From Vicinamibacteria bacterium (GTDB lineage Bacteria; Acidobacteriota; Vicinamibacteria; Marinacidobacterales; Marinacidobacteraceae): 64,000 nucleotides of DNA. A program made the translations under genes and the position numbers. This document shows, in pieces, positions 18,218 through 41,916 of the stretch. The stretch covers positions 2,488,887-2,552,886 of the forward strand of contig OY729431.1 in assembly GCA_963422395.1 (NCBI GenBank). The letters run 5' to 3'. The notes under the pieces were generated by a model that did no database searches, was not told where the DNA came from, and saw only the letters and a program-made list of their open reading frames with translations. How positions within the stretch are numbered: the stretch's first letter is position 1; each line of letters begins with the position of its first letter.

Positions 18218-18604
18218 ATGCCGCAACTGCTCGCTCTTTCCGCTCTGCTGGCCTTCGGGCTCACCGCTCAGGAACCCTGGGAGGTTCCCGAGGAGGCGCG
18301 CACGACTCCGAATCCGGTGCCGGGCGGCGAGGCGGCCGTTGCCGCCGGCAAGACCGCTTACGACGCTCGCTGCGCCTCCTGCCACGGCGACACCGGCAAG
18401 GGGGACGGGAAGGCCACGCGGTTCATCAAACCCGCGCCGGCAGACATCTCCACCGCCGAGGCTCGGGATCGGATGACCGACGGCGAGATGTTCTACAAGA
18501 TCACCGAAGGCAGGAAACCGATGCCCGGGATGGCGCGAACCCTGAGTGAAGAGGAACGCTGGCAGGTGGTCCACTACCTTCGGACGCTGCAACCGCTCCG
18601 GTGA
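18218..18604 (+). CDS. Class I c-type cytochrome, secreted.
   Basis: Signal peptide plus heme-binding CASCHG (CxxCH). A downstream Met ligand (KPMPGM) is present. 128 aa. Confidence 0.8.
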   Translation: MPQLLALSALLAFGLTAQEPWEVPEEARTTPNPVPGGEAAVAAGKTAYDARCASCHGDTGKGDGKATRFIKPAPADISTAEARDRMTDGEMFYKITEGRKPMPGMARTLSEEERWQVVHYLRTLQPLR

Positions 18605-18636
18605 AACCCCGGAAGTCCGAGAAAGGAGAACGTCTC

Positions 18637-19173
18637 ATGTCCATTGCCAGACTCCCCCACCCGCTTCTCGTCGGCGCTGCACTTCTGACCGCCGGCTGTG
18701 TCGCTCCTCCTCCCGGAGGCGGAGGAAGCGGAGGAGGAATGGCCGCCGAAGCGCCCGATCTGACGCTGATGCTCGTGGACGGCAGCCGGGATTTGAGCCT
18801 GCTCGCGGACGGCGGCGGAAAGGTGGTCCTCGTGGACCTCTGGGCGACCTGGTGTGTTCCCTGCGTCGCCGAACTCCCACACCTGCAACAGCTCTCCGAG
18901 TCGCTGCCGGAGGAGGATTTCCTGATGCTGGGCATCGTGCTGGAATCCGGAGACCCCGAAGATGTCGCGCCGTTCATCGCGGAGAAGGGCCTCAGCTACC
19001 CGAACGTGATGGGGTCCAACGAGGCCCGCGACGCCTTCGGCCCCTTCCTCGGCTATCCGACGAAGTACCTCATCGATCGCAACGGAAAGCTCGTGAAGCG
19101 GTATTTCGGTGCGGTCGGAGAGACCCTGGACGAAGAGATCGGCAAACTCCTCGAGAACGGCACCCTCGACTGA
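18637..19173 (+). CDS. TlpA/ResA-family thiol-disulfide oxidoreductase (thioredoxin-like lipoprotein).
   Basis: Lipobox LLTAGC; thioredoxin active site WATWCVPC. It follows ccdA and the cytochrome gene co-directionally. Confidence 0.8.
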   Translation: MSIARLPHPLLVGAALLTAGCVAPPPGGGGSGGGMAAEAPDLTLMLVDGSRDLSLLADGGGKVVLVDLWATWCVPCVAELPHLQQLSESLPEEDFLMLGIVLESGDPEDVAPFIAEKGLSYPNVMGSNEARDAFGPFLGYPTKYLIDRNGKLVKRYFGAVGETLDEEIGKLLENGTLD

Positions 19174-24976: not shown

Positions 24977-25451
24977 ATGTCCGCTACCAACTTCAACACC
25001 CGCAACGACACTTGGCGCAAACTGATGGCGAACGGCTTGAGTTACCGGGTGCCGAGGTTCCATAAGGGACTACAACTGGGGCCCGGAAGAGTGGGAGGAT
25101 CTCTGGCAGGACATCCTCGCCACCGTCGCACCGGGAGGCGAACCGGCTCATTACTTGGGCTACCTGGTTCTGCGCACCGACGACGAGAAACGCTTCGACG
25201 TCATTGACGGTCAGCAGCGCCTGACCACTCTCAGCATCCTGGTGCTGGCCGGGCTGCGCAGGCTCCGAGACACGATCGAAGCAGAGGAATCAGTCGAGGA
25301 GACGAAAAAGCGCCTCGATGGATTGCGCGGAGCGCACATCGGTTATATGGATCCGGTAACTCTGGTATCGGAAGCGAAACTGAAGCTGAATCGAAACAAC
25401 GACCACTACTTCCAGACCTACCTGATACCTCTGGTTAAACCTTTGCCCCCG
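24977..25451 (+). pseudogene. DUF262 (GmrSD-like, DGQQR ParB-like nuclease N-terminal domain) gene remnant, frameshifted and 3'-truncated.
   Basis: MSATNFNTRNDTWRKLMANGLSYRVPRF, then a 1-nt frameshift near 25061..25066, then DYNWGPEEWEDLWQDILATVAPGGEPAHYLGYLVLRTDDEKRFDVIDGQQRLTTLSILVLAG. These are the DUF262 hallmarks. The ORF ends abruptly where the IS-end fragment begins at about 25452, with the expected downstream domain absent. Confidence 0.6.
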
Positions 25452-25659
25452 CGATGACTGCAGGGGCGCGCGGCGGCGGTCGGCGCCGCGCTTTTCGCCT
25501 ACCGGAGCCGGGAAACGCCCGCCTGGGCCTGGATAGCGCCCTGTCGGGCGGTTTTCCCGCGCAGACCGCGCCCGCACGCCGTACTGCGCCGATCACGGCA
25601 CCCCCTCCGGGGCCGCTGATCCTCACCGATTACAGCAGTTTTTCCACAGGCTGCTAACC
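25452..25659. mobile_element. Truncated IS-end fragment, inverted relative to 19297..19505.
   Basis: About 90% identical to the left ~205 bp of the IS remnant, including the terminus ...cacaggctgctaa at 25659. The homology stops at about 25452. Confidence 0.55.
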
Positions 25660-25687: not shown

Positions 25688-26563
25688 ATGCCCGAAAACA
25701 CCCTGCTCGACACTCTGGCAGAGGAGGCCCGGCCCCTGATCTCCGGAGAAGACGGCGAGGGCCCCGAACTCGTCCCCCTCGACCCGGAGCACCCGGGATT
25801 CCGCGACCCGGCCTACCGCGCGCGCCGGAATGCCATCGCCCGCCTCGCCTTCGGCCACACACCGGGGGATCCGGCCCCAACGGTCGCCTACACCGACGAA
25901 GAGCACGGCGTCTGGCGGCAGGTGCGGGAGCTGCTCGACCCGCGGCACCGCGTCTCCGCCAATTCCGAATACCTCGAGTGCGCGGCCGCGGCGGCGCTCG
26001 ATCCGGAGCGGATTCCACAACTCGAAGAAGTGAACGCGCGCATCCGTGCGATCAGTGGATTCCGGATGCAGCCGGTGGCGGGGCTGGTCACTGCGCGCGC
26101 TTTCCTCTCGTGCCTGGCGGACCGCATATTCCTCGCCACCCAGTACATCCGCCACCCGAGCCGTCCGCTCTATACCCCGGAGCCCGATGTCATCCACGAA
26201 CTCGTGGGGCACGCCGCATCGTTCGCCCATCCGGCGTATTCCGAGTTGAGCGCACACTTCGGCCGCGCCGCGCGGGCGGCGGACGAGGAGGAGGTCGAGC
26301 GGATCGCCCGGCTCTACTGGTTCACCCTGGAGTTCGGAGCGGCTCTCGAAGACGGTACCCCCAAGGCCTACGGCGCCGGCCTCCTCTCCTCGGTCGGCGA
26401 ACTGGACCGACTCGCCGAGGTCGAGCTGCGCCGCTTCGACTGCCGAACGATGGCGGAGACCCCGTTCGACCCAACGGATTTCCAGCCGTTCTATTTCGTG
26501 GCACCGAGCTTCGCCGCCATGAAGGAGGGAGTCAGCGCATACCTGCGCCGTTACGCCGACTGA
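25688..26563 (+). CDS. phhA: Phenylalanine-4-hydroxylase (biopterin-dependent aromatic amino acid hydroxylase).
   Basis: The iron-ligand region HELVGHA and EFGA motifs are present. The length (291 aa) and pattern match bacterial PhhA. Confidence 0.85.
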   Translation: MPENTLLDTLAEEARPLISGEDGEGPELVPLDPEHPGFRDPAYRARRNAIARLAFGHTPGDPAPTVAYTDEEHGVWRQVRELLDPRHRVSANSEYLECAAAAALDPERIPQLEEVNARIRAISGFRMQPVAGLVTARAFLSCLADRIFLATQYIRHPSRPLYTPEPDVIHELVGHAASFAHPAYSELSAHFGRAARAADEEEVERIARLYWFTLEFGAALEDGTPKAYGAGLLSSVGELDRLAEVELRRFDCRTMAETPFDPTDFQPFYFVAPSFAAMKEGVSAYLRRYAD

Positions 26564-26591
26564 CCGCTCGGGCGCGCCGCGCTCTTTTCCA

Positions 26592-27029
26592 TCACTCGCT
26601 ACCAGACCCTTTCGAGCGCGCAGCACGACCGACCCCGACTCCGACCCCGAGGGGGACGGAAGTCCAGAGTCCTAGTGCCAGAGGGAGACGAAGTCCCTCG
26701 ATCGGAAGGAGGAACGGGCCGTTCAGACGCCCGGTGAGGATCGCCGTGATCAGCCAGGCGCCGGCTCCGAATGTGATTCCGAGCCCGCCACCGAGAACGA
26801 GCCAGTCTCGAAACCTCGACTCGAAGAGAGTCCCCAGCCGAGTTCCGATGTGCACCCAAACCGGGAAGCCGAGCAGTATCCCGAAGGAAACGCCGAAACC
26901 CATCCGCAGCACATCCCACACGGACTCACGCTCTACGGCGACTCCCCACAGAACGAGCCCGATGAAGAAGCCCAACGCCAGGCTCACCCCTGGCCTCACG
27001 ACACTTGGCGCTACTTCGGTTACCGCCAT
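26592..27029 (-). CDS. Hypothetical 4-TM membrane protein, translationally coupled to the upstream Cys-rich protein gene.
   Basis: The start MAVTEV... overlaps the upstream stop (TGATG). It has four hydrophobic helices and Gly-rich turns. Local GC is low. Confidence 0.45.
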   Translation of the reverse strand: MAVTEVAPSVVRPGVSLALGFFIGLVLWGVAVERESVWDVLRMGFGVSFGILLGFPVWVHIGTRLGTLFESRFRDWLVLGGGLGITFGAGAWLITAILTGRLNGPFLLPIEGLRLPLALGLWTSVPLGVGVGVGRAARSKGSGSE

Positions 27030-27322
27030 CAGATCCAACAGGTAGAAAGGCAGTTGCTGAATCGATTCAGACATGCGTTCACTTCTTCGAGGTGTCTGTC
27101 GTAGCACTGTTCCAAGCAATTTTTCGCACCCCAGAACCCGCATTGGCGTGCACATGTCTCAAGGTCATCTTCCGCTGTCCGAAGGCAGTCGGAAAGATTA
27201 CCGCTGCACTCGGCCACACAGTCCTGCGGATTGGGTTGGGCACGACCGACAGCTGGAATTATGAGAAGAAGAAGAAGTCCGACATATGTGAGGGAGAATA
27301 GAAAAATTCGAAAAGTCTTCAT
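27029..27322 (-). CDS. Small secreted cysteine-rich protein (10 Cys, four CX3C motifs).
   Basis: An AGGAGA SD lies 8 nt before the ATG (MKTFRIF...). The signal peptide is MKTFRIFLFSLTYVGLLLLLIIPAVGRAQ. The mature ~69 aa contain CVAEC, CARQC, CLEQC and CLSTC plus two more Cys. Confidence 0.5.
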   Translation of the reverse strand: MKTFRIFLFSLTYVGLLLLLIIPAVGRAQPNPQDCVAECSGNLSDCLRTAEDDLETCARQCGFWGAKNCLEQCYDRHLEEVNACLNRFSNCLSTCWI

Positions 27323-27377
27323 GAGAGTTCTCCTGTTAGGCAGTTTCCGATGATCCATTTGGAAACAGCGGGAATCA

Positions 27378-27786
27378 CTATTCAGTCGAGAGCCGCTGCG
27401 ACAGCATCTCGAATCGTTTCACCTTCGCCTCCGTGAGGCTGGCAAGACGCGCCATCAGCTCAGCCAAATCCTCTTCTTGCATTCCACGCGTGCGAAGCAT
27501 CGACTCGATTTCGCGGAATCTGGTTTCATAGAGGGCTCTGAGGTCGATCTCGGCACTCCTTCTGCTCGGGACGAGGGGAGGACCTGGTCCATCGAAGGCA
27601 ACTGACGCTTCCGTAACCAGCGGCGCGTACGTCCGGGCAGTGGCCTCCGCCTGGCTCTGATCGACAGTCGCAATGGTTGGTGCCACGACCGAAGGGGTCG
27701 AGGTGTTTCCGGTACTGTCGCAACCGGAACCGACCGACAGCGCCGCGAAGATCGCAACGAGAAGGACGAGGGGGTTCTTTCGGAAC
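27378..27786 (-). CDS. Hypothetical lipoprotein with a C-terminal helical domain.
   Basis: Signal and lipobox MFRKNPLVLLVAIFAALSVGSGC. A Ser/Thr/Pro-rich linker is followed by a helical C-terminus. It is the first gene of the low-GC three-gene cassette. Confidence 0.5.
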
Positions 27787-28065
27787 ATGACGAGGGTCTC
27801 CTCTATGGAAAGTGTCAAGCCTTTGCTGATAGTTCGAGAAACCGGCCGAGTCGAGGACAACGGTTGCGAAGAATCACCCATCCTCGTGCGTCCTCGGTTG
27901 GGTCTCTACGAGTACCAACTGGTTTAGCGTGCCCCAATCCAATTTTCAACAGCAGATCCCCCGAAAATATCCTTCAGGCTCGGGATGGACCGGATCGCCG
28001 TATGGATTTGACTTTCGGTCTGGTTGTCGCAAGACTGCAGGTGAGGACCTCGAAGAAGGACGCGA

Positions 28066-29187
28066 GTGGCGGTTTCGGATCTCGAAGATCGGGGTTGCTG
28101 GTTCCGTGGCGCTGCCGGTGAGAATGCGGTCGAAGACGAAGACGAACGGCTCCCCGGAGAGACCGAGGGGCTGCCGGAATCGGGCGACATCATCCCGGAG
28201 CCGCCGGTCCCGGTAGGCGGGGCGGATGACCTGGGCATCGTGGGCCTCTATCTCCGGGACACCCGCCGGTGTGGTCGGCTTACCGGGAAAGATGAACAGC
28301 GGTGCGCCCGCTCCATGCGGAGGAACGCGCGAGGAAATCGAAAAGCCGAGCAGTCGGCCGCAGAGGCGGCCGCGTTCCATGCCAGCCGCCACCGGATGAT
28401 CGAGGGGAGCCTCGGACTCGTCGTTGCGATCGCAAGGGAATACGAACACCTGGGTCTGCCGCTTGAAGACCTCATCCAGGAAGGCAACCTCGGGCTGATC
28501 GCGGCAGTGGACAAGTTCGACCCCGAGCGGAACCTGAGGCTTTCGACCTACGCCGTGACCTGGATCCGAGAAGCGATCTGCCGGGCGCTCTCCCAGAAGT
28601 CCCGGACGATCCGGATTCCGCTCGACAAACTGGCGATTCGCCGCCGAGCGGCTAAAGTGCATGACGAGATAGAACAGCGGTACGGGAACGAGGCGTGCTG
28701 CGGTGGCTCTCGCCGGGCGCATACCCTGGAGGACGACGCCGGGGAACTCGGAGTGGATGCCGAAGTGCTGCGAACGACGATCCGGCTGGTGCCCGACATC
28801 GATCCGCTGGAGGACCGGCCGAGCGGCAGGCCATCCCTCTTGGCGTCGCTGCCAGACCCCCAGTCGCCGAATCCGGCGGACCGGGCTGCGGCTGCGGAGC
28901 AGCAGCAGCGAGTCAGGGACGCGGTTTCCGAACTCCCGCCCCGCCTGCAGTGGATCGTGCGGCGGCGCTATGGGCTTTCCGGCGGAGAAGAAGCCGGCTT
29001 GGCGAAGGTCGGACGCGAAGTGCGACTCTCCGCCGAGCGGGTTCGCCAGTTGCAGCGCCGAGCGCTGCGCCTGCTTCGTGGGATCCACGCTTCTTCTGCC
29101 GCGCGCACGGAACCGATCCGAGGTCGGCCCTCTCGAACCGCTTTGGCCCCTTTCGCCGGAGCGCCGCCCTTCAGATCGCCCGGATGA
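28066..29187 (+). CDS. Sigma-70 family RNA polymerase sigma factor (regions 1.2, 2, 3, 4).
   Basis: Region 2 reads LVVAIAREYEHLGLPLEDLIQEGNLGLIAAVDKFDPERNLRLSTYAVTWIREAI. A region 4 HTH near the C-terminus reads RRRYGL...RVRQLQRRALRLL. The N-terminus is acidic. Confidence 0.8.
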   Translation: MAVSDLEDRGCWFRGAAGENAVEDEDERLPGETEGLPESGDIIPEPPVPVGGADDLGIVGLYLRDTRRCGRLTGKDEQRCARSMRRNARGNRKAEQSAAEAAAFHASRHRMIEGSLGLVVAIAREYEHLGLPLEDLIQEGNLGLIAAVDKFDPERNLRLSTYAVTWIREAICRALSQKSRTIRIPLDKLAIRRRAAKVHDEIEQRYGNEACCGGSRRAHTLEDDAGELGVDAEVLRTTIRLVPDIDPLEDRPSGRPSLLASLPDPQSPNPADRAAAAEQQQRVRDAVSELPPRLQWIVRRRYGLSGGEEAGLAKVGREVRLSAERVRQLQRRALRLLRGIHASSAARTEPIRGRPSRTALAPFAGAPPFRSPG

Positions 29188-30616
29188 CGACTGCAGTGGC
29201 GTCGTCGTCCGGGGCGCCCCCCCGAAAACGACGAGCGGCGCGGACCACCGCGTCGCACACCTCCGCCGCCGGAGTGCCGAGTTCCCGTTCCCGACGCAGC
29301 AGCGCTGCGAGCCGTTTGCGGCCGTAGAGCTCTCCCCGCCGGTCCGAGGACTCGGTGATCCCATCGGTGTAGAGCGCCAGCAGATCGCCGTCCTCGAGCT
29401 GGATATCCTGTTCGAAGTAGCGCGGCGCAGGAAAGAGACCGACCGGGAGGCCCCCGGCCGGGATCTCCTCCGCCGAGCCATCGGCCCGGATCAGCAGCGG
29501 CGGCGGGTGGCCGGCATTGATGTGGATGAGGCGGCGCAGCGGGACATCGAGCACGCCGTAGAACAGGGTGGCGTACCGGCTCTCGCCGACGCTCTCATAG
29601 AGGAGCTGGTTCGTGCGTCCCAGGATCGTCCGCAGCGAGAAGTTCGAGTGGGCGAGCGAGAACACCGAGGCGCGGAGCGCCGCGACCAGGAGCGCGGCGG
29701 GGAGACCCTTGCCCGCTACATCGGCCACCGCGATCCCCCAGCGATCTTCGCCGAGCGCAACGAAGTCGTAGTAGTCCCCGCCGACCTGGGAGCAGGGCTC
29801 GTACACCGCCGCCACTTCGAGGCCGACGAGCGACGGGTTGTCGTGCGGCAGCAGGTCGTGCAGCACCTTTCCCGCCACTTCCATCTCGGAGACCAGCTTC
29901 CGGCCCTCCACCGCCTTCTCGTAGAAGAGGATGCGTTCGATGGCGGGAGCGGTTCCGGCCGCCCAGGCGCGGAGTGCGGTTCGGTCGCGCTCGCCGAAGG
30001 CCGCCGGCCGCTGCGATTCGGCGACGACGGCACCGAGGCGGCGGCCGCCCGCCCCGAGGAGCGGGGCGACGACCGCCGAACCGGTTTCCGGGCTCAGGTC
30101 GGGATCTTCGAACGCCATCCCCCCCTGAGCCGACCCGACGAGCTCCGGCCGACCGCTCTCCATGACCTGAGCCACGACCCCGCCCGCCGGAATCTCGCAG
30201 CCATCCGGGATTTCCGTATCCACCAGCTCGCTGGCGCGGCCACGCGCCCGCCTGCAGATCAGGCTTCCGTCGAGGCCGACGATGGTGAGCGTCGCGCGGT
30301 CGCAACCCGGCAGCACCTGGCGCAGCCCGGCGAGCACGGTGTCCGCGGTGCGCCCGATCTCCAGACTGCGCCCGACCTCCTGGAAGGCTTCGAGCAGTCG
30401 ATCGGCGTTCGTTTCGAGCAGGCCCTCGGCGGTCGCCCCTCGACGGTCATCGCTGGGAAGCCGAGGAGCGGGCACCGCCGCGTCGAGAGGCCCGGCAGCG
30501 AAACGAGAAGGGGGCAGCGCGGTTACCGCATCGCGAAGCAGTAGAACAGGCCGTCGCCTCCGGTTCCCTGGAGGTCCGCCTGCCCGCAGCCGCGCGAGCC
30601 GTGGGCCGAGTTCCAC
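29171..30616 (-). CDS. GAF domain-containing PP2C/SpoIIE-family serine phosphatase.
   Basis: An N-terminal GAF-like region is followed by the PP2C motifs GDYYDF, VADVAGKG and LYTDGITE. The true start is probably downstream of 30616, because the track ORF overlaps the preceding gene by 94 nt. Confidence 0.7.
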   Translation of the reverse strand: MELGPRLARLRAGGPPGNRRRRPVLLLRDAVTALPPSRFAAGPLDAAVPAPRLPSDDRRGATAEGLLETNADRLLEAFQEVGRSLEIGRTADTVLAGLRQVLPGCDRATLTIVGLDGSLICRRARGRASELVDTEIPDGCEIPAGGVVAQVMESGRPELVGSAQGGMAFEDPDLSPETGSAVVAPLLGAGGRRLGAVVAESQRPAAFGERDRTALRAWAAGTAPAIERILFYEKAVEGRKLVSEMEVAGKVLHDLLPHDNPSLVGLEVAAVYEPCSQVGGDYYDFVALGEDRWGIAVADVAGKGLPAALLVAALRASVFSLAHSNFSLRTILGRTNQLLYESVGESRYATLFYGVLDVPLRRLIHINAGHPPPLLIRADGSAEEIPAGGLPVGLFPAPRYFEQDIQLEDGDLLALYTDGITESSDRRGELYGRKRLAALLRRERELGTPAAEVCDAVVRAARRFRGGAPDDDATAVVIRAI

Positions 30617-32582: not shown

Positions 32583-35018
32583 CTATCCGTGGCGAAGGGC
32601 GGCGATGGGTTGGATGCGGGCGGACCGGCGGGCGGGGATGATGCTGGCTAGCACCGCGGCGCCGAGCACGATGACGAGGGTTGCGACCCAGGACGAAGGG
32701 TCGGACGCCCGCACTCCGAAGAGCAGGCTCTGGAGCAGCCGACTCGCGAACAGCGCTCCGACGAGCCCGGCCGCAAGCCCGATGGCGGCGAGACGCATCC
32801 CCTCGCTCAGGATCAGCCGCGTCAACTCGGCGCGGCCGGCGCCGAAGGCCATCCGGACGCCGATTTCGGCGGTCCGTTCCGCAGCCAGTGCCGACACCAC
32901 GCTGTAAGACCCGGCAGCCGCGAGCGCCACCGCGAGGGCGGCGAACACCGTCAGCAGCAGCGCGAGGAAGCGCGAGTCCTGCAAGGAGTCGGCGAGCACT
33001 GCCTCCATGCTGCGGAAGCCGTCCACCGGAAGCGCCGGATCGAGCTCGTGGGCGGCTTCCCGCACCGGCACCGCCAGCGCCTCGGGCGGCAGCTCCGAGC
33101 GCAGAACCACATGCATCGCGCGCGGCGCGTAACCGGCGGCAGCGGCCGTTTGCGGGTAGTGGAAATAGACTTCGGTGCCGGTCTCGGCCCCGAGTCCGCC
33201 CTGTTTCACATCCTTGGCTACGCCGATCACGGTGAACCAGGGGATCTCGGAGCCGGGGGGCTTCAGCCGCCGTCCGATGGGATCCTGATCGGGCCAGAAC
33301 AGCTCCGCTGCCGTCCGGTTCACGACCGCGACCGGCGTCGCCCCGCCGTCGTCGGAGGGAGTGAAGCCGCGCCCGGCGAGCAGCGGGATCCCCATGGTCT
33401 CGAAGTAACCCGACCCGGCGAACTGCCAGTAATCCATGTTCTGCTCGGGATACCCCTCACTCTCGGGCAGGCCCTCGATCAGGGTGTCGTTCGCGTTCAG
33501 CCGCCGGCGCGGCGGCAGTCCGCTCATCATGGTGACGGCTTCTACCCCGGGAATCCGTTCGATCCGGGCGCTCAGCCGGTCGAGGAAGGCCAACTGGTCC
33601 GTCGACTCCGGGTAATCGGTTTCGGGTAGAAAGGTCTGGAAGGCCGAAAGCTCCGACGGCGCAAAGCCGGGGTCCTCGGCCTGGAGAGCGAAGAGGCTTC
33701 GCACCAGCAGCAGGGAGGAGATCAGCAGCACTGCCGACAGGCCGATCTCGAAAGCCACGAGCCCCTGACGCAGCCGCCGCCGCTTCGGGGTGGTGCGGAG
33801 CCCGCCCGACTGCAGGCTCGCGAGCAGCTGCGCCTCCTGGCGTCCGGTGGCGAGGTAGGCCGCCGGCGCCGCTCCGCTGACGAGACCGGTGATCAGCACC
33901 GCAGCGACGGCGAAACCCAGCACCGGCCACGAGATTCCGATCTCGGCGATCCGGGGGATCCCGCCGGGGTAGGCGGCGACGAGGGCTTCGGTGGCAGCCG
34001 CGGCGAGGAACACGCCGAGGGCGCCGCCGAGGCCGGCGACGATGAAGCCCTCGCCCAGGAACGGCATGGCACTCCGGAAGCGCCCCGAGCCGAGCGCGGT
34101 GCGCACGGCGATCTCGCCGCGCCGCGCCTCCGCCCGCCCGAGAACGAGATTCCCGAGGTTCGCGCAGGCGGCGAAGAGCAACACCCCGGAGAGCGCCAGC
34201 AGCGCGAGCAGTCGGGCGCTGTGCTCGCCGACCACCTCCTCATGCAGATCCACCAGGATCACTGGATGGAACTCGGGATGGGGAGCGTGGGTGTCCTGCG
34301 ACTCCGATCTCCAACGGTCGAGAAGCACCGGCAACTCCGCGCGGGCGGAATCCAGCCCGGCCCCCTCGGCGAGCCGGGCCACCATGATGTAGTTGTGGGA
34401 TCCCCGCCCCGGCAAGTCGGCGGGATCGAGCGCGAGCGGAGTCCAGACCTCGATGCGGTGGTCGAGCAGGTCCACGCCTTTCGGCAGCACACCGATGACG
34501 GTGTGCTGCACCCCGTCCACCAGGAGTCGGGTTCCGAGCACCCCCGGATCGGCGCCGAAGGCCCGCTGCCAGAGACCGTGAGAGAGGACGACGACCGGTT
34601 CGGTGCCTGGGCGATCTTCCTCTTCGCCGAAGACGCGCCCGAGAGCCGCCGAGATGCCGAGGGTGCGGAAGAGGCTGGCAGTGACAGCCGCCTCCTGGGC
34701 CCGGAAGGGCGCCCCGCCTCCCTGAAGCGAGGCCATCCCGGCATTGAAGGCCCCGGCCTCCTCGAAAGAGGAGCTCCACTCGCGGTATTCGAGGTATTCC
34801 GGCGCGGAGATCCAGAACTTGTCGAACCCCATGGTGGGGAACTGCGTCGCGACCCGGACCAGATCGTCGGGCGCCCGGTAGGGCAGCGGGGCGAAGAGCG
34901 CCGTGTTCACCACGGTGAAGACGGCGGTGTTGACACCGACGCCGAGAGCGATCACCAGGACCGCGAAGGCTGCGTAGCCGGGGTTCTTCAACAGCGAGCG
35001 AACGGCGGGGAATTTCAC
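32583..35018 (-). CDS. ADOP-family duplicated FtsX/MacB-like ABC transporter permease.
   Basis: FPAVRSLLKNPGYAAFAVLVIALGVGVNTAVFTVVNTALF is the ADOP N-terminal signature. Two FtsX-like 4-TM modules are separated by large periplasmic domains. The GTG start at 35018 is preceded by AGAGG. Confidence 0.8.
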   Translation of the reverse strand: MKFPAVRSLLKNPGYAAFAVLVIALGVGVNTAVFTVVNTALFAPLPYRAPDDLVRVATQFPTMGFDKFWISAPEYLEYREWSSSFEEAGAFNAGMASLQGGGAPFRAQEAAVTASLFRTLGISAALGRVFGEEEDRPGTEPVVVLSHGLWQRAFGADPGVLGTRLLVDGVQHTVIGVLPKGVDLLDHRIEVWTPLALDPADLPGRGSHNYIMVARLAEGAGLDSARAELPVLLDRWRSESQDTHAPHPEFHPVILVDLHEEVVGEHSARLLALLALSGVLLFAACANLGNLVLGRAEARRGEIAVRTALGSGRFRSAMPFLGEGFIVAGLGGALGVFLAAAATEALVAAYPGGIPRIAEIGISWPVLGFAVAAVLITGLVSGAAPAAYLATGRQEAQLLASLQSGGLRTTPKRRRLRQGLVAFEIGLSAVLLISSLLLVRSLFALQAEDPGFAPSELSAFQTFLPETDYPESTDQLAFLDRLSARIERIPGVEAVTMMSGLPPRRRLNANDTLIEGLPESEGYPEQNMDYWQFAGSGYFETMGIPLLAGRGFTPSDDGGATPVAVVNRTAAELFWPDQDPIGRRLKPPGSEIPWFTVIGVAKDVKQGGLGAETGTEVYFHYPQTAAAAGYAPRAMHVVLRSELPPEALAVPVREAAHELDPALPVDGFRSMEAVLADSLQDSRFLALLLTVFAALAVALAAAGSYSVVSALAAERTAEIGVRMAFGAGRAELTRLILSEGMRLAAIGLAAGLVGALFASRLLQSLLFGVRASDPSSWVATLVIVLGAAVLASIIPARRSARIQPIAALRHG

Positions 35019-35103
35019 TGGGGCGCCTCTCGTTGACCAGATAGAACGATTCCGGCTGGCTGGAGGTTCATCGAGCCGCGGCCTCGCCGTTATGCTCGGC
35101 GGC

Positions 35104-35655
35104 ATGGACATCCGCCGGAGGTTTTCCCGGGGAATCGCCGCGCTCCCGATCCTCCTGGGCGCGCTCCTCCCGGGTACAGCGGCGGCCCATGAGGAATCGG
35201 AGGAGGCGTTGGTCGCGGCCCGGTGGTTCCGGCTCGTCGAGGGACTCGACGGGAGCGAGGCGAGCCGGGAAGCGTTCCTCGCTCTCTATGCCGAAGACGC
35301 GCTCCATATCCAGGGACCCTCCGGACCGCACCAGCGGGGAAGCGCCGCCTACTGGGGACGGGAGAAGGTGGGCCTCCTCGTGGACCGGCTGCTCGCCGAG
35401 TGGACGGACCACTCGATCCGTCCCGAAGTGGCCACCGCCGCCGAGGTCTCGGAGACGGTCTGGGCCGAGGCCCCGGGCCCCTGGGGCGGCCCCTTGGTCG
35501 CCGTCCAGTTCACGATCACCGGCACCCGCGTCGCCGACGAGACCCGCTGGCAGGTTCCGGGAGCGGCCTTCTTCCGAATCCGAGGCGGGGAACTGGTGCG
35601 GGTGCGGATCTACCTGGGACTCGGAGAAGCCGCCGAAGTCGAAATCCAGCGGTGA
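35104..35655 (+). CDS. Hypothetical secreted protein (NTF2/SnoaL-like size and composition).
   Basis: Signal peptide MDIRRRFSRGIAALPILLGALLPGTAAAHE. About 160 aa mature. No catalytic motifs recognised. Confidence 0.45.
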   Translation: MDIRRRFSRGIAALPILLGALLPGTAAAHEESEEALVAARWFRLVEGLDGSEASREAFLALYAEDALHIQGPSGPHQRGSAAYWGREKVGLLVDRLLAEWTDHSIRPEVATAAEVSETVWAEAPGPWGGPLVAVQFTITGTRVADETRWQVPGAAFFRIRGGELVRVRIYLGLGEAAEVEIQR

Positions 35656-38146: not shown

Positions 38147-38447
38147 GTCAGGGTCTCCTCAGGATCTCCGGGAAGCGCACCGACCAGCGAGCACCGCGAA
38201 CCGGAGAGGCCCCGGACGCTATCCGCTCGCGAGCCGAGCCGTCAATGGCCACTCGGGGGCTGCGCCGGGGGAGCTTCGGACAGGCGGTCGCAGGGGAGCG
38301 GACCGAGGCCCCACGGAAAGCTGCTCTTCCCGCCTATAGAAGAGGATGTTGCGCTTGCTTCGCAGGGGCTCGATGGGTGTCCCCGCATGGATGACGATTT
38401 TTGTCCAGGTGATCGAGTATCCTGTCTTGCTTCAGACCCTCTCTGCG

Positions 38448-40700
38448 ATGCCTTCTCGATCTGATCACTATTTCGCGCACAGCGCCCCCTCCGAAAACCC
38501 GTCCTCGTGGCACCGGCTGGACGACCACCTCCGGCACACCGGAGACCGCGCCGCCGGCTTCCTCGAACGGGTCGGGCTCGCCCACTTCGGTCGGGCCGCC
38601 GGGCTCCTCCATGACCTCGGCAAGTACACCGAGAAGTTCCAGCAGAGGCTCCGCGGCGGCCCGCGCGTGAATCATTCGACAGCCGGAGCCAAAATCGCGT
38701 GCGAACGCTATCCAGGCATCATCGGAAAAATGCTGGCATTCGGTGTTGCCGGCCATCACGCGGGACTTGCGAATGGTGTGAACGGCGAGAAAATCACTGC
38801 CCTCGCCGATCGGTTGCGCGAAAACACCCCCGAACTCGACCCGTTATGGAGCCAGGAAATACAACTCCCGCCGCTTGGTCCACCGCAGATCCAGAGCCGC
38901 AGTCGGGAGAACGCCGGATTTTCCGGGTCGTTCCTGATCCGCCTGCTGTTCTCGGCCCTGGTGGACGCAGACTATCTCGATACCGAGGCCTATTACGCAA
39001 GAATCGAGAAAACGAGTCCGAGTCGCGGAGGCCACCCCTCACTCGGAATACTTCGCGACCGCCTCGATGCCCACCTCGAAGGGCTCACCGCGCGGGCCTC
39101 GGCCAGCGAAGTGAACGCGCTCCGCCGCGAAGTGCTGCACCACGCCAGAAAACGGGCAGTGGACACGCCCGGCCTCTTCACTCTCACGGTACCTACCGGC
39201 GGCGGCAAGACCCTCACTTCACTGTCGTTCGCCCTCCACCACGCCGTGCACCACGGGCTCGACCGGATCCTCTATGTCATCCCGTACATGAACATCATCG
39301 AACAGACGGCCGCTGTTTTCCGCGATGTCCTGCAAGACGACGAATCCGAGGGGCCGCACTTCGTGATCGAGCATCACAGCACCTTCGACGAGCAGCGAGT
39401 CGAGAAACGTTCCGGTAAAGAGAAACTCCGTCTCGCGATGGAGAATTGGGACGCTCCCATCGTGGTCACCACCGCCGTCCAGTTCTTCGAGAGCCTTTTC
39501 TCGAACCGCCCGTCCCGCTGCCGAAAACTGCACAACATCGCTGGCAGCGTCGTCGTCCTAGATGAGGCGCAGACTCTTCCCCTCGAATTCCTGCGCCCCT
39601 GCGTCGCCGCGATGGATGAGCTGGCGCGGAATTGGCGCGCCACCGTCGTCCTCTGCAGTGCCACGCAGCCGGCGCTGCGCGAGGAGAGCGGCTTCTGTGG
39701 CGGATTGCGCGAAGTGCGTGAACTCGCACCCCAACCGACTCGGCTCCAGCGAAGCCTAAAGCGAACTCGTATCCACCAAAAAGGCCCGATGGAGGACTCC
39801 GAGATCACCGAACGATTGCGTGGAACGCCGCAGGCACTTTGCATCGTCAACACGCGGGCCCACGCACGGGCTCTGTACGAAGCAATCGAAGATCAGGATG
39901 GGGCCACGCACCTCACCACTTCGATGTGCGCCCGTCACCGTCGGGAGATTCTGGAAGAAGTCCGCTCCCGGCTGACGATCGGTGAACCGATTCGGTTGAT
40001 CGCCACCTCACTGGTCGAAGCCGGGGTGGACCTGGATTTTCCGGTCGTTTGGCGTGAGGAAGCAGGCCTCGAATCCATCATCCAGGCGGCAGGACGATGC
40101 AATCGGGAAGGGAAAGCGCCGTCCGGAGATGTGATCGTGTTCCGTTCGCAAGCCGGTGGTCGAGGATTGCCCGAGATACGGAAGGCCGCAGACGCTGCGC
40201 GCCAGGTCCTCCGGAAGCACCAGGATCCCATGTCTCTGCCCGCCATCCAGGAGTATTTCCAGACGCGCTACTGGATCGAAGGAGATAATGCCTTGGACAC
40301 CAAGGGGATCCTTCCCATGCTCCGTGAACGGAAAAGGAGTCTCGACTTTCCTTTCGAAACGATCTCTCGTGCGTTCTGCCTGATCGAAACACCCATGGCC
40401 CCGGTGATCGTCCCCTACAGAGGCCGAGAGGGGAAAGACAGAACCGCAGACCGCCTGATCGCCGCTCTCGAGCATGAAGAGCGCCCCGGCTGGCTGGCGC
40501 GTAGTCTGCAGCCGTACACGGTCCCCGTTCCGCTGCTCGGCCGGAAATCTCTACTGGACTCCAGGGCCGCCCGGATCATCCGGGAGGCCGATTTCGACGA
40601 ACAGTTCGTCGTCCTCGACAACCGAGACATCTATCGGGCGGACATCGGCCTCACCTGGGACGATCCAAGCTTTCACAGCGTCGAGGGGCTGATCTGTTGA
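38448..40700 (+). CDS. cas3: CRISPR-associated helicase/nuclease Cas3 (HD domain plus SF2 helicase).
   Basis: The HD motifs HYFAHS and LLHDLGKY are at the N-terminus. Helicase motifs VPTGGGKT and VLDEAQ follow. The start is assigned to ATG 38448 (MPSRSDHYFAHS). The track start at 38346 adds non-conserved residues. Confidence 0.95.
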   Translation: MPSRSDHYFAHSAPSENPSSWHRLDDHLRHTGDRAAGFLERVGLAHFGRAAGLLHDLGKYTEKFQQRLRGGPRVNHSTAGAKIACERYPGIIGKMLAFGVAGHHAGLANGVNGEKITALADRLRENTPELDPLWSQEIQLPPLGPPQIQSRSRENAGFSGSFLIRLLFSALVDADYLDTEAYYARIEKTSPSRGGHPSLGILRDRLDAHLEGLTARASASEVNALRREVLHHARKRAVDTPGLFTLTVPTGGGKTLTSLSFALHHAVHHGLDRILYVIPYMNIIEQTAAVFRDVLQDDESEGPHFVIEHHSTFDEQRVEKRSGKEKLRLAMENWDAPIVVTTAVQFFESLFSNRPSRCRKLHNIAGSVVVLDEAQTLPLEFLRPCVAAMDELARNWRATVVLCSATQPALREESGFCGGLREVRELAPQPTRLQRSLKRTRIHQKGPMEDSEITERLRGTPQALCIVNTRAHARALYEAIEDQDGATHLTTSMCARHRREILEEVRSRLTIGEPIRLIATSLVEAGVDLDFPVVWREEAGLESIIQAAGRCNREGKAPSGDVIVFRSQAGGRGLPEIRKAADAARQVLRKHQDPMSLPAIQEYFQTRYWIEGDNALDTKGILPMLRERKRSLDFPFETISRAFCLIETPMAPVIVPYRGREGKDRTADRLIAALEHEERPGWLARSLQPYTVPVPLLGRKSLLDSRAARIIREADFDEQFVVLDNRDIYRADIGLTWDDPSFHSVEGLIC

Positions 40701-41244: not shown

Positions 41245-41916
41245 ATGTCGTACGGAGCAAGACTCCATGTGTGGGGCGATTACGCATGTTTCACTCGCCC
41301 CGAGATGAAGGCCGAGCGCGTCTCCTACGACGTCATGACACCGTCGGCAGCGCGTGGAATTCTGGAAGCGATCCATTGGAAGCCGGCGATCCGGTGGATC
41401 GTGGATCGGATCCAGGTGTTGAAACGGATCCGGTTCGAAACGATTCGAAGAAACGAACTCGGAAGCAAGATTCCGGCAGGAAACATCAGCGTCGCGATGC
41501 AGCGCGGCGACACCGGAGGTCTCGCCGTCTCGATCGAAAGCGACCGGCAGCAGCGCGCCGCCACCGTACTGCGCGATGTCGCTTATCTCATCGAAGCGCA
41601 CTTCATCCTCACACCCGTTGCAAACCCAGACGATACTCCGGCGAAACACGCCGCGATGTTCCACCGGCGCGCCGCTCGAGGGCAGTGCTTCCACCGACCG
41701 TATCTGGGGACCCGCGAGTTCCCGGCCCACTTCGCCCCGGTCCCGGATCCGCCGCCATCATCCTCCCTACCGACCGATCAGTGTGATCGTGATCTAGGCT
41801 GGATGCTGCACGACCTCGACTACGCGAATGCCGCGTCGCCCAGATTCTTCCGCGCAACGCTCCGGAATGGCGTGGTGCATGTCCCGCCGCTTGATTCAGA
41901 GGAGGTCAAGGGATGA
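41245..41916 (+). CDS. cas5c: Cas5c (Cas5d), type I-C.
   Basis: MSYGARLHVWGDYACFTRPEMKAERVSYDVMTPSAARGILEAIHWKP is the canonical Cas5d N-terminus. The stop overlaps the cas8c start (ATGA). Confidence 0.95.
   Translation: MSYGARLHVWGDYACFTRPEMKAERVSYDVMTPSAARGILEAIHWKPAIRWIVDRIQVLKRIRFETIRRNELGSKIPAGNISVAMQRGDTGGLAVSIESDRQQRAATVLRDVAYLIEAHFILTPVANPDDTPAKHAAMFHRRAARGQCFHRPYLGTREFPAHFAPVPDPPPSSSLPTDQCDRDLGWMLHDLDYANAASPRFFRATLRNGVVHVPPLDSEEVKG

What the first reader, a model, noticed from the sequence alone, without database searches (positions are those of the whole stretch)
27029..27322. Secreted bacterial protein with four CX3C motifs (double twin-CX3C)
The mature sequence QPNPQDCVAECSGNLSDCLRTAEDDLETCARQCGFWGAKNCLEQCYDRHLEEVNACLNRFSNCLSTCWI contains CVAEC, CARQC, CLEQC and CLSTC. 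Twin CX3C helical hairpins are the hallmark of small Tim chaperones and CHCH-like folds in the mitochondrial intermembrane space. A Sec-exported bacterial protein with two such pairs, presumably oxidised by the Dsb system, is unusual and has no obvious named family.
Basis: partly seen in the sequence, partly recalled or inferred. Interest (0 to 1): 0.6.

Follow-up and report, generated by a model that had tools for sequence, protein, structure and literature searches.

The report
Five-disulfide helical hairpin, exported, unannotated
This is a real but uncalled bacterial gene for a small exported protein that most likely folds into one long helical hairpin pinned by five disulfide bridges; it belongs to a very rare unnamed family that travels with a four-helix membrane protein, a lipoprotein and an alternative sigma factor, and its function is unknown.

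Summary
On the minus strand, 27029-27322 encodes a 97-aa protein with a Shine-Dalgarno site, a conserved signal-peptide cleavage site and a 69-aa mature part carrying CVAEC, CARQC, CLEQC and CLSTC.

The ten cysteines have mirror-symmetric spacing (4,7,11,4 | 8 | 4,11,7,4), so every pair sums to 74. AlphaFold2 gives one hairpin (helices 4-36 and 39-67, pLDDT 91), not two. The inferred structure is a five-rung nested disulfide ladder.

The same ten-cysteine pattern recurs in all six domain copies found (one copy has a one-residue offset in the innermost pair). No Pfam, NCBIfam, PDB, PHROG or PADLOC family matches. An exhaustive scan of 1.84 billion representative proteins gave three relatives. 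Matches to small Tim and CHCH proteins are non-significant, so the resemblance is analogy, not membership.

The gene's stop overlaps the start of a conserved 4-TM membrane gene. A lipoprotein gene lies upstream, and an RpoS/RpoD-like sigma gene is adjacent in three loci. All four genes have lower GC3 than their flanks.

Two public gene calls extend the 4-TM gene out of frame across the hairpin ORF instead of calling it. I read the protein as the periplasmic partner of the 4-TM protein in a sigma-linked envelope module. That function is inferred from gene context only.

The parts
27921..27949 (-). Promoter-like element TTGAAA-N17-TAAACC at the head of the operon
   Evidence: It is the only match to TTGAMA-N17-TWAAMS in the 64-kb window (0.01 expected). 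The only matches in L001 and L005 also lie upstream of the lipoprotein gene. The pattern was derived after the fact from these three sites, so this shows conservation, not an independent test.
27378..27788 (-). Upstream gene: putative lipoprotein of 136 aa. It has the signal MFRKNPLVLLVAIFAALSVGSG|C, a Pro/Thr/Ala-rich linker and a C-terminal helical region of about 55 aa. A longer ORF from 27881 is possible.
   Evidence: ORF. GAGGAG lies 9 nt before the ATG at 27788. It aligns with the first gene of the L001 and L005 modules; the lipobox cysteine is invariant and identity is 24-27%. No Pfam, NCBIfam or PDB match.
27329..27334 (-). Shine-Dalgarno sequence AGGAGA of the hairpin gene
   Evidence: GGAGG or AAGGAG sits at the same place before the homologous genes in L001 and L005.
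27029..27322 (-). Hairpin gene: 97 codons plus TGA
   Evidence: GC is 49% and GC3 0.50, against 0.82-0.87 in flanking genes.
27239..27322 (-). Sec-type signal peptide, residues 1-28, cleaved after GRA
   Evidence: Read from the sequence. The cleavage site and the following Q-N/P are conserved in P0001 and both L005 paralogues. None of the homologues has a twin arginine.
27131..27229 (-). Helix 1 (mature residues 4-36), carrying C7, C11, C18, C29 and C33
   Evidence: AlphaFold2 model m2f37a88cc07c, pLDDT 91.3. All five cysteines fall within an 80-degree arc of the helical wheel.
27038..27124 (-). Helix 2 (mature residues 39-67), carrying C41, C45, C56, C63 and C67, followed by the conserved C-terminal C-x-I
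26592..27029 (-). Downstream gene: 145-aa membrane protein with four glycine-rich TM helices. Its ATG shares one base with the hairpin gene's TGA (TGATG).
   Evidence: Overlap read. Orthologues are 43-46% identical in L001 and L002 and 30-32% in L005. AlphaFold2 gives four helices. Public records carry it as 160-aa and 175-aa products that start inside the hairpin ORF in another frame.
28066..29187 (+). Divergent gene for a 373-aa RpoS/RpoD-like sigma-70 family factor, co-inherited with the module
   Evidence: Sigma70_r2 and r4. Best NCBIfam matches are RpoS and RpoD models, all far below their cutoffs. Orthologues 46-48% identical sit next to the module in L001 (convergent) and L005 (same strand, downstream). 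GC3 is 0.75, as in the module and below the flanks.

Best explanation
The ORF is a genuine gene that was not called in the public gene calls I could check.

Export and folding. Its product is exported by the Sec pathway and cleaved after GRA, giving a 69-residue acidic protein (pI about 4.4) with an N-terminal glutamine. This folds as one antiparallel alpha-hairpin about 45 Angstrom long. On each helix the cysteines follow an 11-residue register (7/18/29 and 11/[A22]/33; 45/56/67 and 41/[E52]/63). They therefore line one face and meet their mirror partners.

Inferred disulfides. The pairing is five nested disulfides: C33-C41, C29-C45, C18-C56, C11-C63 and C7-C67. Only one of these joins consecutive cysteines, so folding in the periplasm would need an oxidase and probably an isomerase.

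Proposed role. The rigid rod is the periplasmic partner of the 4-TM inner-membrane protein encoded immediately downstream. That protein is translationally coupled, and its loops 1 and 3 are predicted to face the periplasm. The pair works together with the lipoprotein encoded upstream. The three genes form one operon behind a conserved promoter-like element. They are inherited together with an RpoS/RpoD-like alternative sigma factor. I therefore read the whole as a sigma-linked envelope module for stress protection or sensing.

Status of each step. Shown: the gene, its conservation, the cysteine pattern and the gene order. Predicted: the fold. Inferred: the disulfide map, the physical complex and the envelope role. 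My rough confidence by layer: real gene and single-hairpin ladder about 0.85; cognate partner of the 4-TM protein about 0.6; sigma-linked envelope stress or sensing role about 0.3.
For: Gene reality:
- Shine-Dalgarno site.
- Codon-position divergence of 0.40, 0.26 and 0.71.
- Homologues P0001 (60% identity, E 4e-20), P0002 and P0003, plus two paralogues in L005.

One hairpin:
- AlphaFold2 single-sequence model, pLDDT 91.3, helices 4-36 and 39-67.
- Mirror sums are constant in five of the six domain copies while the loop length varies (inner Cys-Cys spacing 8-12); in L005b one pair is offset by a single residue (sums 78,78,78,78,79).
- Such symmetry arose in 3 of 200,000 shuffles.
- The cysteines sit within an 80-degree arc on each helix.
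- The ten cysteines plus L42 are the only invariant columns.

Partnership with the 4-TM protein:
- TGATG stop/start overlap in the window.
- The hairpin gene is followed by the 4-TM gene in the window, L001, L002 and twice in tandem in L005.
- The 4-TM family is as rare as the hairpin family: four clusters among 5.8 billion.

Module with lipoprotein and sigma factor:
- Present in the window, L001 and L005 in three different orientations.
- The four genes share lower GC3 than their flanks, in the window and in L001.
- A promoter-like motif is unique to the operon head in each locus.

Other points:
- The hairpin is the most conserved component between the window and L001: 62%, against 46% for the sigma factor, 43% for the 4-TM protein and 24% for the lipoprotein.
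- The host has an outer membrane: an outer-membrane beta-barrel gene and SecA are in the window.
Against: - No experiment or expression data exist for any member.
- The disulfide map comes from register and predicted secondary structure. I could not read distances from model coordinates.
- The fold prediction used a single sequence.
- Only four independent loci exist, probably from related high-GC bacteria, so shared ancestry could explain part of the synteny.
- L002 lacks the lipoprotein and has no sigma gene within reach. P0003 carries the domain in quite another context, with no 4-TM gene nearby.
- The 4-TM protein has only a cytoplasmic loop of about 15 residues. It has no recognisable way to contact a sigma factor, so the link to the sigma factor may be mere co-regulation.
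- The 4-TM model is mediocre (pLDDT 69.5), and its fold search was uninformative.
Confidence: 0.5

Rival explanations
1. A secreted antibacterial peptide with its immunity protein. The disulfide-locked hairpin would be a toxin, as plant alpha-hairpinins are. The small 4-TM protein would protect the producer, and the lipoprotein would help release.
For: - A small exported hyperstable peptide is followed by a translationally coupled small polytopic membrane protein with no enzyme motifs.
- Hairpin/4-TM pairs are duplicated in tandem in L005.
- L002 keeps an intact 4-TM gene beside a truncated hairpin gene, like an orphan immunity gene.
- Atypical GC and very patchy distribution.
- The C1X3C2-Xn-C3X3C4 motif defines the antimicrobial alpha-hairpinins (PMC11591084).
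Against: - The operon-type hairpins are acidic, with net charge -2 to -7 and pI 4.2-5.3. From my own knowledge, membrane-active bacteriocins and alpha-hairpinins are typically cationic.
- The hairpin is the most conserved module component, not the fastest-evolving one.
- No exporter able to cross the outer membrane lies in the module or its immediate flanks; the nearest candidate, a MacB-like ABC permease, is about 5 kb away (32583-35111).
- No match among plasmids, phages, PHROGs or PADLOC.
- The conserved link to a sigma factor is not typical of bacteriocin loci.
Confidence: 0.17
2. A periplasmic metal-binding or metal-sensing protein. The facing cysteine pairs would stay reduced and bind Cu(I), Zn, Cd or similar ions. 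Two hairpins might form a four-helix bundle with a thiolate-lined core, as in Csp copper-storage proteins.
For: - Ten cysteines lie on one face, together with many Asp and Glu residues.
- Reduced small Tim proteins bind Zn through their twin CX3C motif (PMC3759932).
- The L005 paralogues add an N-terminal CXXC motif (CAAC).
- Weak Vanabin-2 matches at E=0.19 in two members.
Against: - The signal peptide is Sec-type, and no homologue has a twin arginine. The protein therefore crosses unfolded into an oxidising compartment, where facing cysteines would be expected to oxidise (inference).
- No DUF326/Csp or other metal-family hit.
- No metal efflux, P-type ATPase or metal-regulator genes in any of the loci.
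- No conserved histidine or methionine.
Confidence: 0.1
3. A bacterial homologue or forerunner of the mitochondrial small Tim (twin-CX3C) chaperones. It would assemble into oligomers that escort hydrophobic proteins across the periplasm.
For: - The inner four cysteines form a twin-CX3C helix-loop-helix in the compartment equivalent to the intermembrane space.
- The best profile hit in the PDB is a Tim10/DDP protein, aligned over the inner CX3C-loop-CX3C (E=0.24).
- The best single-sequence PDB hit is ATPTG7, a subunit of the Toxoplasma mitochondrial ATP synthase (E=0.73).
Against: - Both hits are non-significant and rest largely on the cysteines.
- PF02953 is not matched by any of the six copies.
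- The protein has six more cysteines. It lacks the flexible N- and C-terminal tentacles of small Tims, because the helices are pinned to their ends.
- The family is confined to a handful of high-GC environmental contigs.
Confidence: 0.03
4. Not a gene. The public annotation would be right, with the 4-TM protein starting at 27074 (160 aa), and the cysteine-rich frame would be a chance ORF.
For: - The source genome's record and an independent assembly-aa and 175-aa products that cover the 3' part of the ORF. Neither calls the hairpin.
- GC3 of 0.50 is unlike that of the host's genes.
Against: - The hairpin frame is conserved with all its cysteines in L001 and twice in L005. Each copy has its own Shine-Dalgarno site and signal peptide.
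- The 4-TM orthologues start at the position of MAVTEV and lack the extension.
- The codon-position pattern is that of a coding sequence.
- Mirror-symmetric cysteine spacing arose in 3 of 200,000 shuffles.
Confidence: 0.02

Closest known systems
Mitochondrial small Tim proteins (Tim9/Tim10/Tim8/Tim13; Pfam zf-Tim10_DDP)
   Same: Both are helix-loop-helix proteins held by juxtaposed disulfides between two CX3C motifs. Both sit in an oxidising compartment between two membranes (PMC3759932).
   Different: - Five rungs instead of two, following an 11-residue register.
- The helices are pinned along their whole length, so there are no free tentacles.
- Sec signal peptide rather than Mia40-dependent import.
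- No significant sequence similarity.
- Oligomeric state unknown.
Plant alpha-hairpinins (C1X3C2-Xn-C3X3C4 antimicrobial peptides, 4C and 6C types)
   Same: Same cysteine motif logic and a disulfide-stapled alpha-hairpin. Versions with 6 to 8 cysteines exist (PMC11591084).
   Different: - Plant peptides are shorter and have two or three disulfides.
- They are usually cationic and cut out of larger precursors (my own knowledge). This protein is bacterial, acidic, has 10 cysteines and its own Sec signal.
- Here the gene is embedded in an operon with membrane partners.
CHCH-domain (twin CX9C) proteins such as Cox17 and Mia40 substrates
   Same: A disulfide-bridged antiparallel alpha-hairpin.
   Different: The spacing here is CX3C, CX6C and CX10C, not CX9C. 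The Pfam CHCH model matches one of six copies at E=0.016, below its cutoff.
Mosquito salivary SG7/AAPP helical hairpin (PDB 4okv)
Periplasmic alpha-helical stress and sensor proteins that act with membrane partners (CpxP/Spy/ZraP, CnrX; NlpE and RcsF lipoproteins)
   Same: From my own knowledge, these are small periplasmic helical proteins or disulfide-bearing lipoproteins. They work with inner-membrane proteins and are tied to a transcription regulator. ZraP and CnrX appear among the generic fold hits.
   Different: No sequence relationship. Those proteins lack a cysteine ladder. Their membrane partners are kinases or single-pass anti-sigma factors, not a 4-TM protein. The sigma factor here is RpoS/RpoD-like, not ECF.
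Csp copper-storage proteins (DUF326)
   Same: From my own knowledge, these are helical proteins rich in CX3C-type spacing, with cysteines lining the helix interface.
   Different: Csp proteins are four-helix bundles whose reduced thiolates bind Cu(I), and Csp1 is Tat-exported (my own knowledge). This protein is a two-helix hairpin with a Sec signal and no Pfam match.

Membership tests
Small Tim / Tim10-DDP (PF02953) | Significant match to the family profile | tested here: not met
   PF02953 matched none of the six domain copies at E up to 10. The best PDB profile hit, Tim10/DDP 7w5z_T1, has E=0.24.
Small Tim / Tim10-DDP (PF02953) | One twin-CX3C motif forming two juxtaposed intramolecular disulfides in a helix-loop-helix | tested here: inconclusive
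   The motif is present twice, nested, with a fifth pair between. AlphaFold2 predicts a helix-loop-helix. The disulfides themselves are inferred, not observed.
Small Tim / Tim10-DDP (PF02953) | Hexameric alternating assembly with chaperone activity | not testable with these tools
   This needs biochemistry or a multimer prediction.
CHCH domain (PF06747) | Twin CX9C motifs | tested here: not met
   The cysteine spacings are 4, 7, 11, 4, 8, 4, 11, 7, 4, with no CX9C. Pfam gives E=0.016 for one member only, below the cutoff.
Plant alpha-hairpinins | C1X3C2-X(4-20)-C3X3C4 motif in a helix-loop-helix peptide with two disulfides | tested here: met
   C29X3C33-X7-C41X3C45 fits the published motif (PMC11591084). 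The motif alone does not show homology.
Plant alpha-hairpinins | Plant origin, short peptide, antimicrobial activity | tested here: not met
   The gene is bacterial. The mature protein has 69 residues and 10 cysteines and is acidic. Activity was not tested.
Csp / DUF326 copper storage | Match to the DUF326 profile and a four-helix bundle with a cysteine-lined core | tested here: not met
   No Pfam hit. The model has two helices.
Bacteriocin plus immunity pair | Adjacent, co-transcribed small membrane protein specific to the peptide | tested here: met
   Stop/start overlap and conserved pairing, duplicated in L005. This shows position only; it is not proof of immunity.
Bacteriocin plus immunity pair | Cationic or amphipathic toxic peptide with a dedicated export route out of the cell | tested here: not met
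   Net charge is -2 to -7. No exporter in the module or its immediate flanks; a MacB-like ABC permease lies about 5 kb away at 32583-35111. No PADLOC or PHROG match.
Tat-exported cofactor protein | Conserved twin-arginine motif in the signal peptide | tested here: not met
   NRRTLMK appears only if the upstream ATG at 27358 is used. That ATG has no Shine-Dalgarno site. The motif is absent from P0001 and both L005 paralogues.

The most novel reading that the evidence does not exclude
The four genes could form a new kind of envelope signalling unit. The five-disulfide hairpin would report the oxidative-folding or redox state of the periplasm, or would be a ligand. It would be held by its cognate 4-TM protein and a lipoprotein, and the unit would control or be controlled by a dedicated RpoS/RpoD-like sigma factor. 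No such arrangement has been described for group-2-like sigma factors. An even bolder reading, at a probability of roughly 0.03, is that this is a bacterial relative of the small Tim chaperones.
Probability: 0.15. Interest if true: 0.7.

Novelty: new variant of a known kind. Interest (0 to 1): 0.45.

Why it matters
Disulfide-stapled alpha-hairpins are known from eukaryotic compartments and secretions: small Tims, CHCH proteins, plant alpha-hairpinins and insect saliva proteins. I found no bacterial family of this kind in the libraries or papers searched.

- Oxidative folding. This hairpin has five nested rungs on an 11-residue register. Four of its five predicted bonds join non-consecutive cysteines, so it would be a demanding natural test substrate for bacterial oxidative folding.
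- Protein engineering. It would also be a compact, probably very stable scaffold.
- Gene calling. Gene callers replaced the gene with an out-of-frame extension of its neighbour, probably because it is small and low in GC. Families of this kind may therefore be under-counted in protein databases.
- Biology. The conserved link to a 4-TM protein, a lipoprotein and an alternative sigma factor points to an uncharacterised envelope module. The family is very rare, which limits its general importance.

Tried and rejected
- Tat export via the upstream ATG at 27358: rejected. There is no Shine-Dalgarno site and the motif is not conserved.
- A regulatory RNA hairpin between the lipoprotein and hairpin genes: rejected. 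Folding z-scores are 0.36, -1.47, 1.03 and -0.02. No Rfam family matches anywhere in the window.
- Family assignment by Pfam, NCBIfam, PHROGs, PADLOC or PDB sequence search, for the hairpin, the 4-TM protein and the lipoprotein: nothing significant.
- Fold searches. The hairpin matches only generic alpha-hairpins. The 4-TM model gave nothing usable. The afdb50 library was unavailable.
- Looking for more loci: no relative was found in genome contigs, metagenome contigs (two scans), viral contigs, plasmids or phages. The first attempt failed because the alignment was too divergent.
- Identifying the organism with an exact 40-mer: not found among GTDB species representatives.
- Paralogues elsewhere in the window: none, using a local HMM on six-frame translations.
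- Literature searches for a bacterial twin-CX3C family, or for a cysteine-rich periplasmic partner of a 4-TM protein, found nothing relevant.
- The first word-index protein search missed even P0001. Only the exhaustive HMMER scan found the relatives.
Full report
**1. Observation**

The minus strand from 27322 to 27029 encodes MKTFRIFLFSLTYVGLLLLLIIPAVGRAQPNPQDCVAECSGNLSDCLRTAEDDLETCARQCGFWGAKNCLEQCYDRHLEEVNACLNRFSNCLSTCWI, followed by TGA. AGGAGA lies 6 nt upstream of the ATG. An in-frame ATG at 27358 has no such site.

The four CX3C motifs are there. The mature part, however, has ten cysteines, at 7, 11, 18, 29, 33, 41, 45, 56, 63 and 67. Their spacings are 4,7,11,4 | 8 | 4,11,7,4, so each symmetric pair sums to 74. 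In 200,000 shuffles of the mature sequence, at least four CX3C motifs occurred in 1.8%. Mirror symmetry occurred 3 times.

**2. Is it a gene?**

Yes.

- An exhaustive HMMER scan of 1.84 billion representative proteins found three relatives:
  - P0001: 96 aa, 60% identity, E 4e-20, all ten cysteines conserved.
  - P0002: 48 aa, covering the second helix only.
  - P0003: 247 aa, with two tandem copies of the same ten-cysteine pattern.
- Two further paralogues came to light through the neighbouring gene.
- Differences between the window and L001 genes fall 0.40, 0.26 and 0.71 on codon positions 1, 2 and 3.
- Every copy has its own Shine-Dalgarno site.
- Every copy has a signal peptide ending in a small-x-small site (GRA, AAA, SAA, ARA), followed by Q-N or Q-P.
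- None of the homologues has a twin arginine, so export is by Sec. The NRRTLMK string created by the upstream ATG is not conserved.

**3. Structure**

AlphaFold2 on the single sequence gives pLDDT 91.3 and two helices, 4-36 and 39-67.

- The break at residues 37-38 coincides with the centre of the cysteine symmetry (74/2).
- On each helix the cysteines lie within an 80-degree arc.
- They follow an 11-residue register: 7/18/29 and 11/A22/33 on helix 1, and 45/56/67 and 41/E52/63 on helix 2.
- From this I infer five nested disulfides: C33-C41, C29-C45, C18-C56, C11-C63 and C7-C67. A sixth, non-cysteine rung is A22/E52.
- I could not read distances from model coordinates, so the map is an inference.
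- The symmetry holds in five of the six domain copies while the inner Cys-Cys spacing across the loop varies from 8 to 12; in the sixth, L005b, a one-residue insertion shifts the innermost pair (sums 78,78,78,78,79; inner spacing 7).
- The ten cysteines and L42 are the only invariant columns.
- The open end of the hairpin is the best conserved part outside the cysteines: the N-terminal Q-N-x-P-D-C and the C-terminal C-x-I. The loop is variable.
- The operon-type members are acidic, with pI 4.2-5.3.

**4. Known families**

- No Pfam, NCBIfam, PHROG or PADLOC model matches.
- The best single-sequence PDB hit is ATPTG7, a subunit of the Toxoplasma mitochondrial ATP synthase, at E=0.73.
- The best profile hit is a Tim10/DDP protein at E=0.24, aligned over the inner CX3C-loop-CX3C.
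- Scanning the six copies one by one gave CHCH at E=0.016 (one copy), Vanabin-2 at E=0.19 (two copies), and no small Tim model.

The resemblance to small Tims (PMC3759932), plant alpha-hairpinins (PMC11591084) and the SG7/AAPP hairpin (PMC7948415) is therefore one of design. Demonstrable descent is not shown.

**5. Context**

- **4-TM gene.** The TGA of the hairpin gene shares a base with the ATG of a 145-aa gene (26592-27029). It has four glycine-rich TM helices. By the positive-inside rule its N- and C-termini and loop 2 are cytoplasmic, and loops 1 and 3 (10-15 residues) are periplasmic. This is my inference from the alignment.
- **Rarity of the 4-TM family.** It is as rare as the hairpin family: four clusters among 5.8 billion. 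In every locus the 4-TM gene follows a hairpin gene:
  - L001: hairpin, then 4-TM.
  - L002: half-hairpin, then 4-TM.
  - L005: hairpin, 4-TM, hairpin, 4-TM.
- **Lipoprotein gene.** Upstream lies a gene with a lipoprotein-type signal, a low-complexity linker and a helical C-terminal region (27378-27788). It is conserved in L001 and L005 at 24-27% identity, with the lipobox cysteine invariant.
- **Sigma factor gene.** A sigma-70 family gene whose best matches are RpoS and RpoD models, all below cutoff, lies next to the module. It is divergent in the window, convergent in L001 and co-directional in L005. The orthologues are 46-48% identical.
- **Composition.** The four genes share depressed GC3.

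| Locus | Lipoprotein | Hairpin | 4-TM | Sigma | Flanking genes |
|---|---|---|---|---|---|
| Window | 0.67 | 0.50 | 0.71 | 0.75 | 0.82-0.87 |
| L001 | 0.76 | 0.69 | 0.76 | 0.76 | 0.82-0.90 |

- **Promoter-like element.** TTGAMA-N17-TWAAMS occurs once in the window (27921-27949, 0.01 expected). It occurs once each in L001 and L005, always ahead of the lipoprotein gene. The pattern was derived from those sites.
- **Host.** The host has an outer membrane: an outer-membrane beta-barrel gene and SecA are in the window.

**6. Annotation**

The window's 4-TM protein is in public collections as a 160-aa product that starts at 27074, inside the hairpin ORF in another frame.

An independent assembly is 100% identical over 26265-27467. 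It carries a 175-aa version and no hairpin call.

The hairpin product, whether 97 or 109 aa, is not on record. It also did not come back when its own sequence was part of the query profile.

The orthologous 4-TM proteins lack the N-terminal extension. The gene was therefore missed and its neighbour over-extended, probably because the hairpin gene is short and has 49% GC in a genome of about 68% GC.

**7. Function**

What is shown is the gene, the pattern, the family and the gene order. The fold is predicted. Everything functional is inferred.

My preferred reading is a periplasmic rod that forms a one-to-one complex with its cognate 4-TM protein, together with the lipoprotein, in a sigma-linked envelope module. 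The grounds are the following:

- translational coupling;
- strict co-occurrence with the 4-TM gene;
- duplication as pairs in L005;
- shared composition and a conserved promoter-like element;
- the hairpin being the most conserved part: 62%, against 46%, 43% and 24% for the sigma factor, the 4-TM protein and the lipoprotein.

Rival readings:

- **Toxin and immunity pair.** This fits the gene pair, the duplication and the orphan 4-TM gene in L002. It fits poorly with the acidic charge, the slow divergence, the missing exporter and the sigma link.
- **Metal binding.** This fits the cysteine face. It fits poorly with Sec export into an oxidising compartment and with the absence of any metal genes nearby.
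- **Small Tim homology.** This has no statistical support.
- **Chance ORF.** The conservation excludes this.

**8. Verdict**

This is a new, very rare bacterial variant of the disulfide-stapled alpha-hairpin design, sitting in an uncharacterised conserved module. Interest is moderate.

Noticed in passing
window 26592-27155 (-): Public records over-extend the 4-TM gene to 160 aa (start at 27074) or 175 aa, out of frame across the 3' part of the hairpin ORF. The hairpin gene itself is not called. An independent assembly (L007) is 100% identical over window 26265-27467.
   Followed up: yes
window 46867-48849: A CRISPR array of about 29 repeats, with the unit GTCGCCCCCCGCACGGGGGGCGCGGATTGAAAC and a period of about 66-67 bp. 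It lies downstream of type I-C-like cas genes: Cas3 at 38346-40700 and Csd1/Cas8c at 41913-43682. This region has lower GC3 (0.72-0.74) than most of the window.
   Followed up: partly
window 25155-25457 (+): A 100-aa fragment matches only the N-terminal part of the GmrSD/DUF262 restriction endonuclease (E 1.7e-9). It sits in a low-GC patch between the dicarboxylate symporter and phenylalanine hydroxylase genes and looks like a gene remnant.
   Followed up: no
L002 361-507: A truncated family member of 48 aa has only the second helix, with five cysteines, behind a lipobox-like LLAAC. It is still followed by an intact 4-TM gene. No trace of helix 1 remains in any upstream frame. It may be a decaying gene or a lipidated single-helix variant.
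   Followed up: partly
L005 1536-1838 and 2354-2650: Both L005 hairpin paralogues carry an eleventh cysteine, which makes an N-terminal CXXC (CAAC) just before the ladder. An odd cysteine count implies a free thiol or an intermolecular bond.
   Followed up: no
L003 8001-8744 (P0003): A 247-aa secreted protein has two tandem ten-cysteine hairpin domains and a further cysteine-rich tail. It is encoded directly after a 2971-aa CLIPPER-repeat surface protein, with no 4-TM gene nearby. The first domain is strongly basic (pI 11.5), unlike the operon-type members.
   Followed up: partly
window 28066-29187 (+); L001 10897-11925; L005 3214-4242: The module-linked sigma factors share three invariant cysteines (window residues C80, C172, C211) and an acidic, poorly conserved N-terminal region of about 95 residues. 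They score best against RpoS and RpoD models, and against the sigma domain of MzaA, but far below all cutoffs.
   Followed up: partly
window 29171-30616 (-): A GAF-SpoIIE (PP2C) phosphatase gene abuts the 3' end of the sigma gene, converging on it. This hints at partner-switching control. It is not conserved next to the sigma gene in L001 or L005.
   Followed up: no
window 27921-27949 (-); L001 9442-9470; L005 994-1022: A promoter-like motif, TTGAMA-N17-TWAAMS, is unique in each sequence and always lies upstream of the lipoprotein gene. Its -10 part (TAAACC, TAAAAC, TTAACG) departs from TATAAT.
   Followed up: partly
window 18601-19173 (+): A Redoxin/AhpC-TSA/thioredoxin-fold protein of 190 aa, possibly a TlpA-like periplasmic thiol-disulfide oxidoreductase, lies about 8 kb from the hairpin gene. 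No link to the hairpin gene was established.
   Followed up: no
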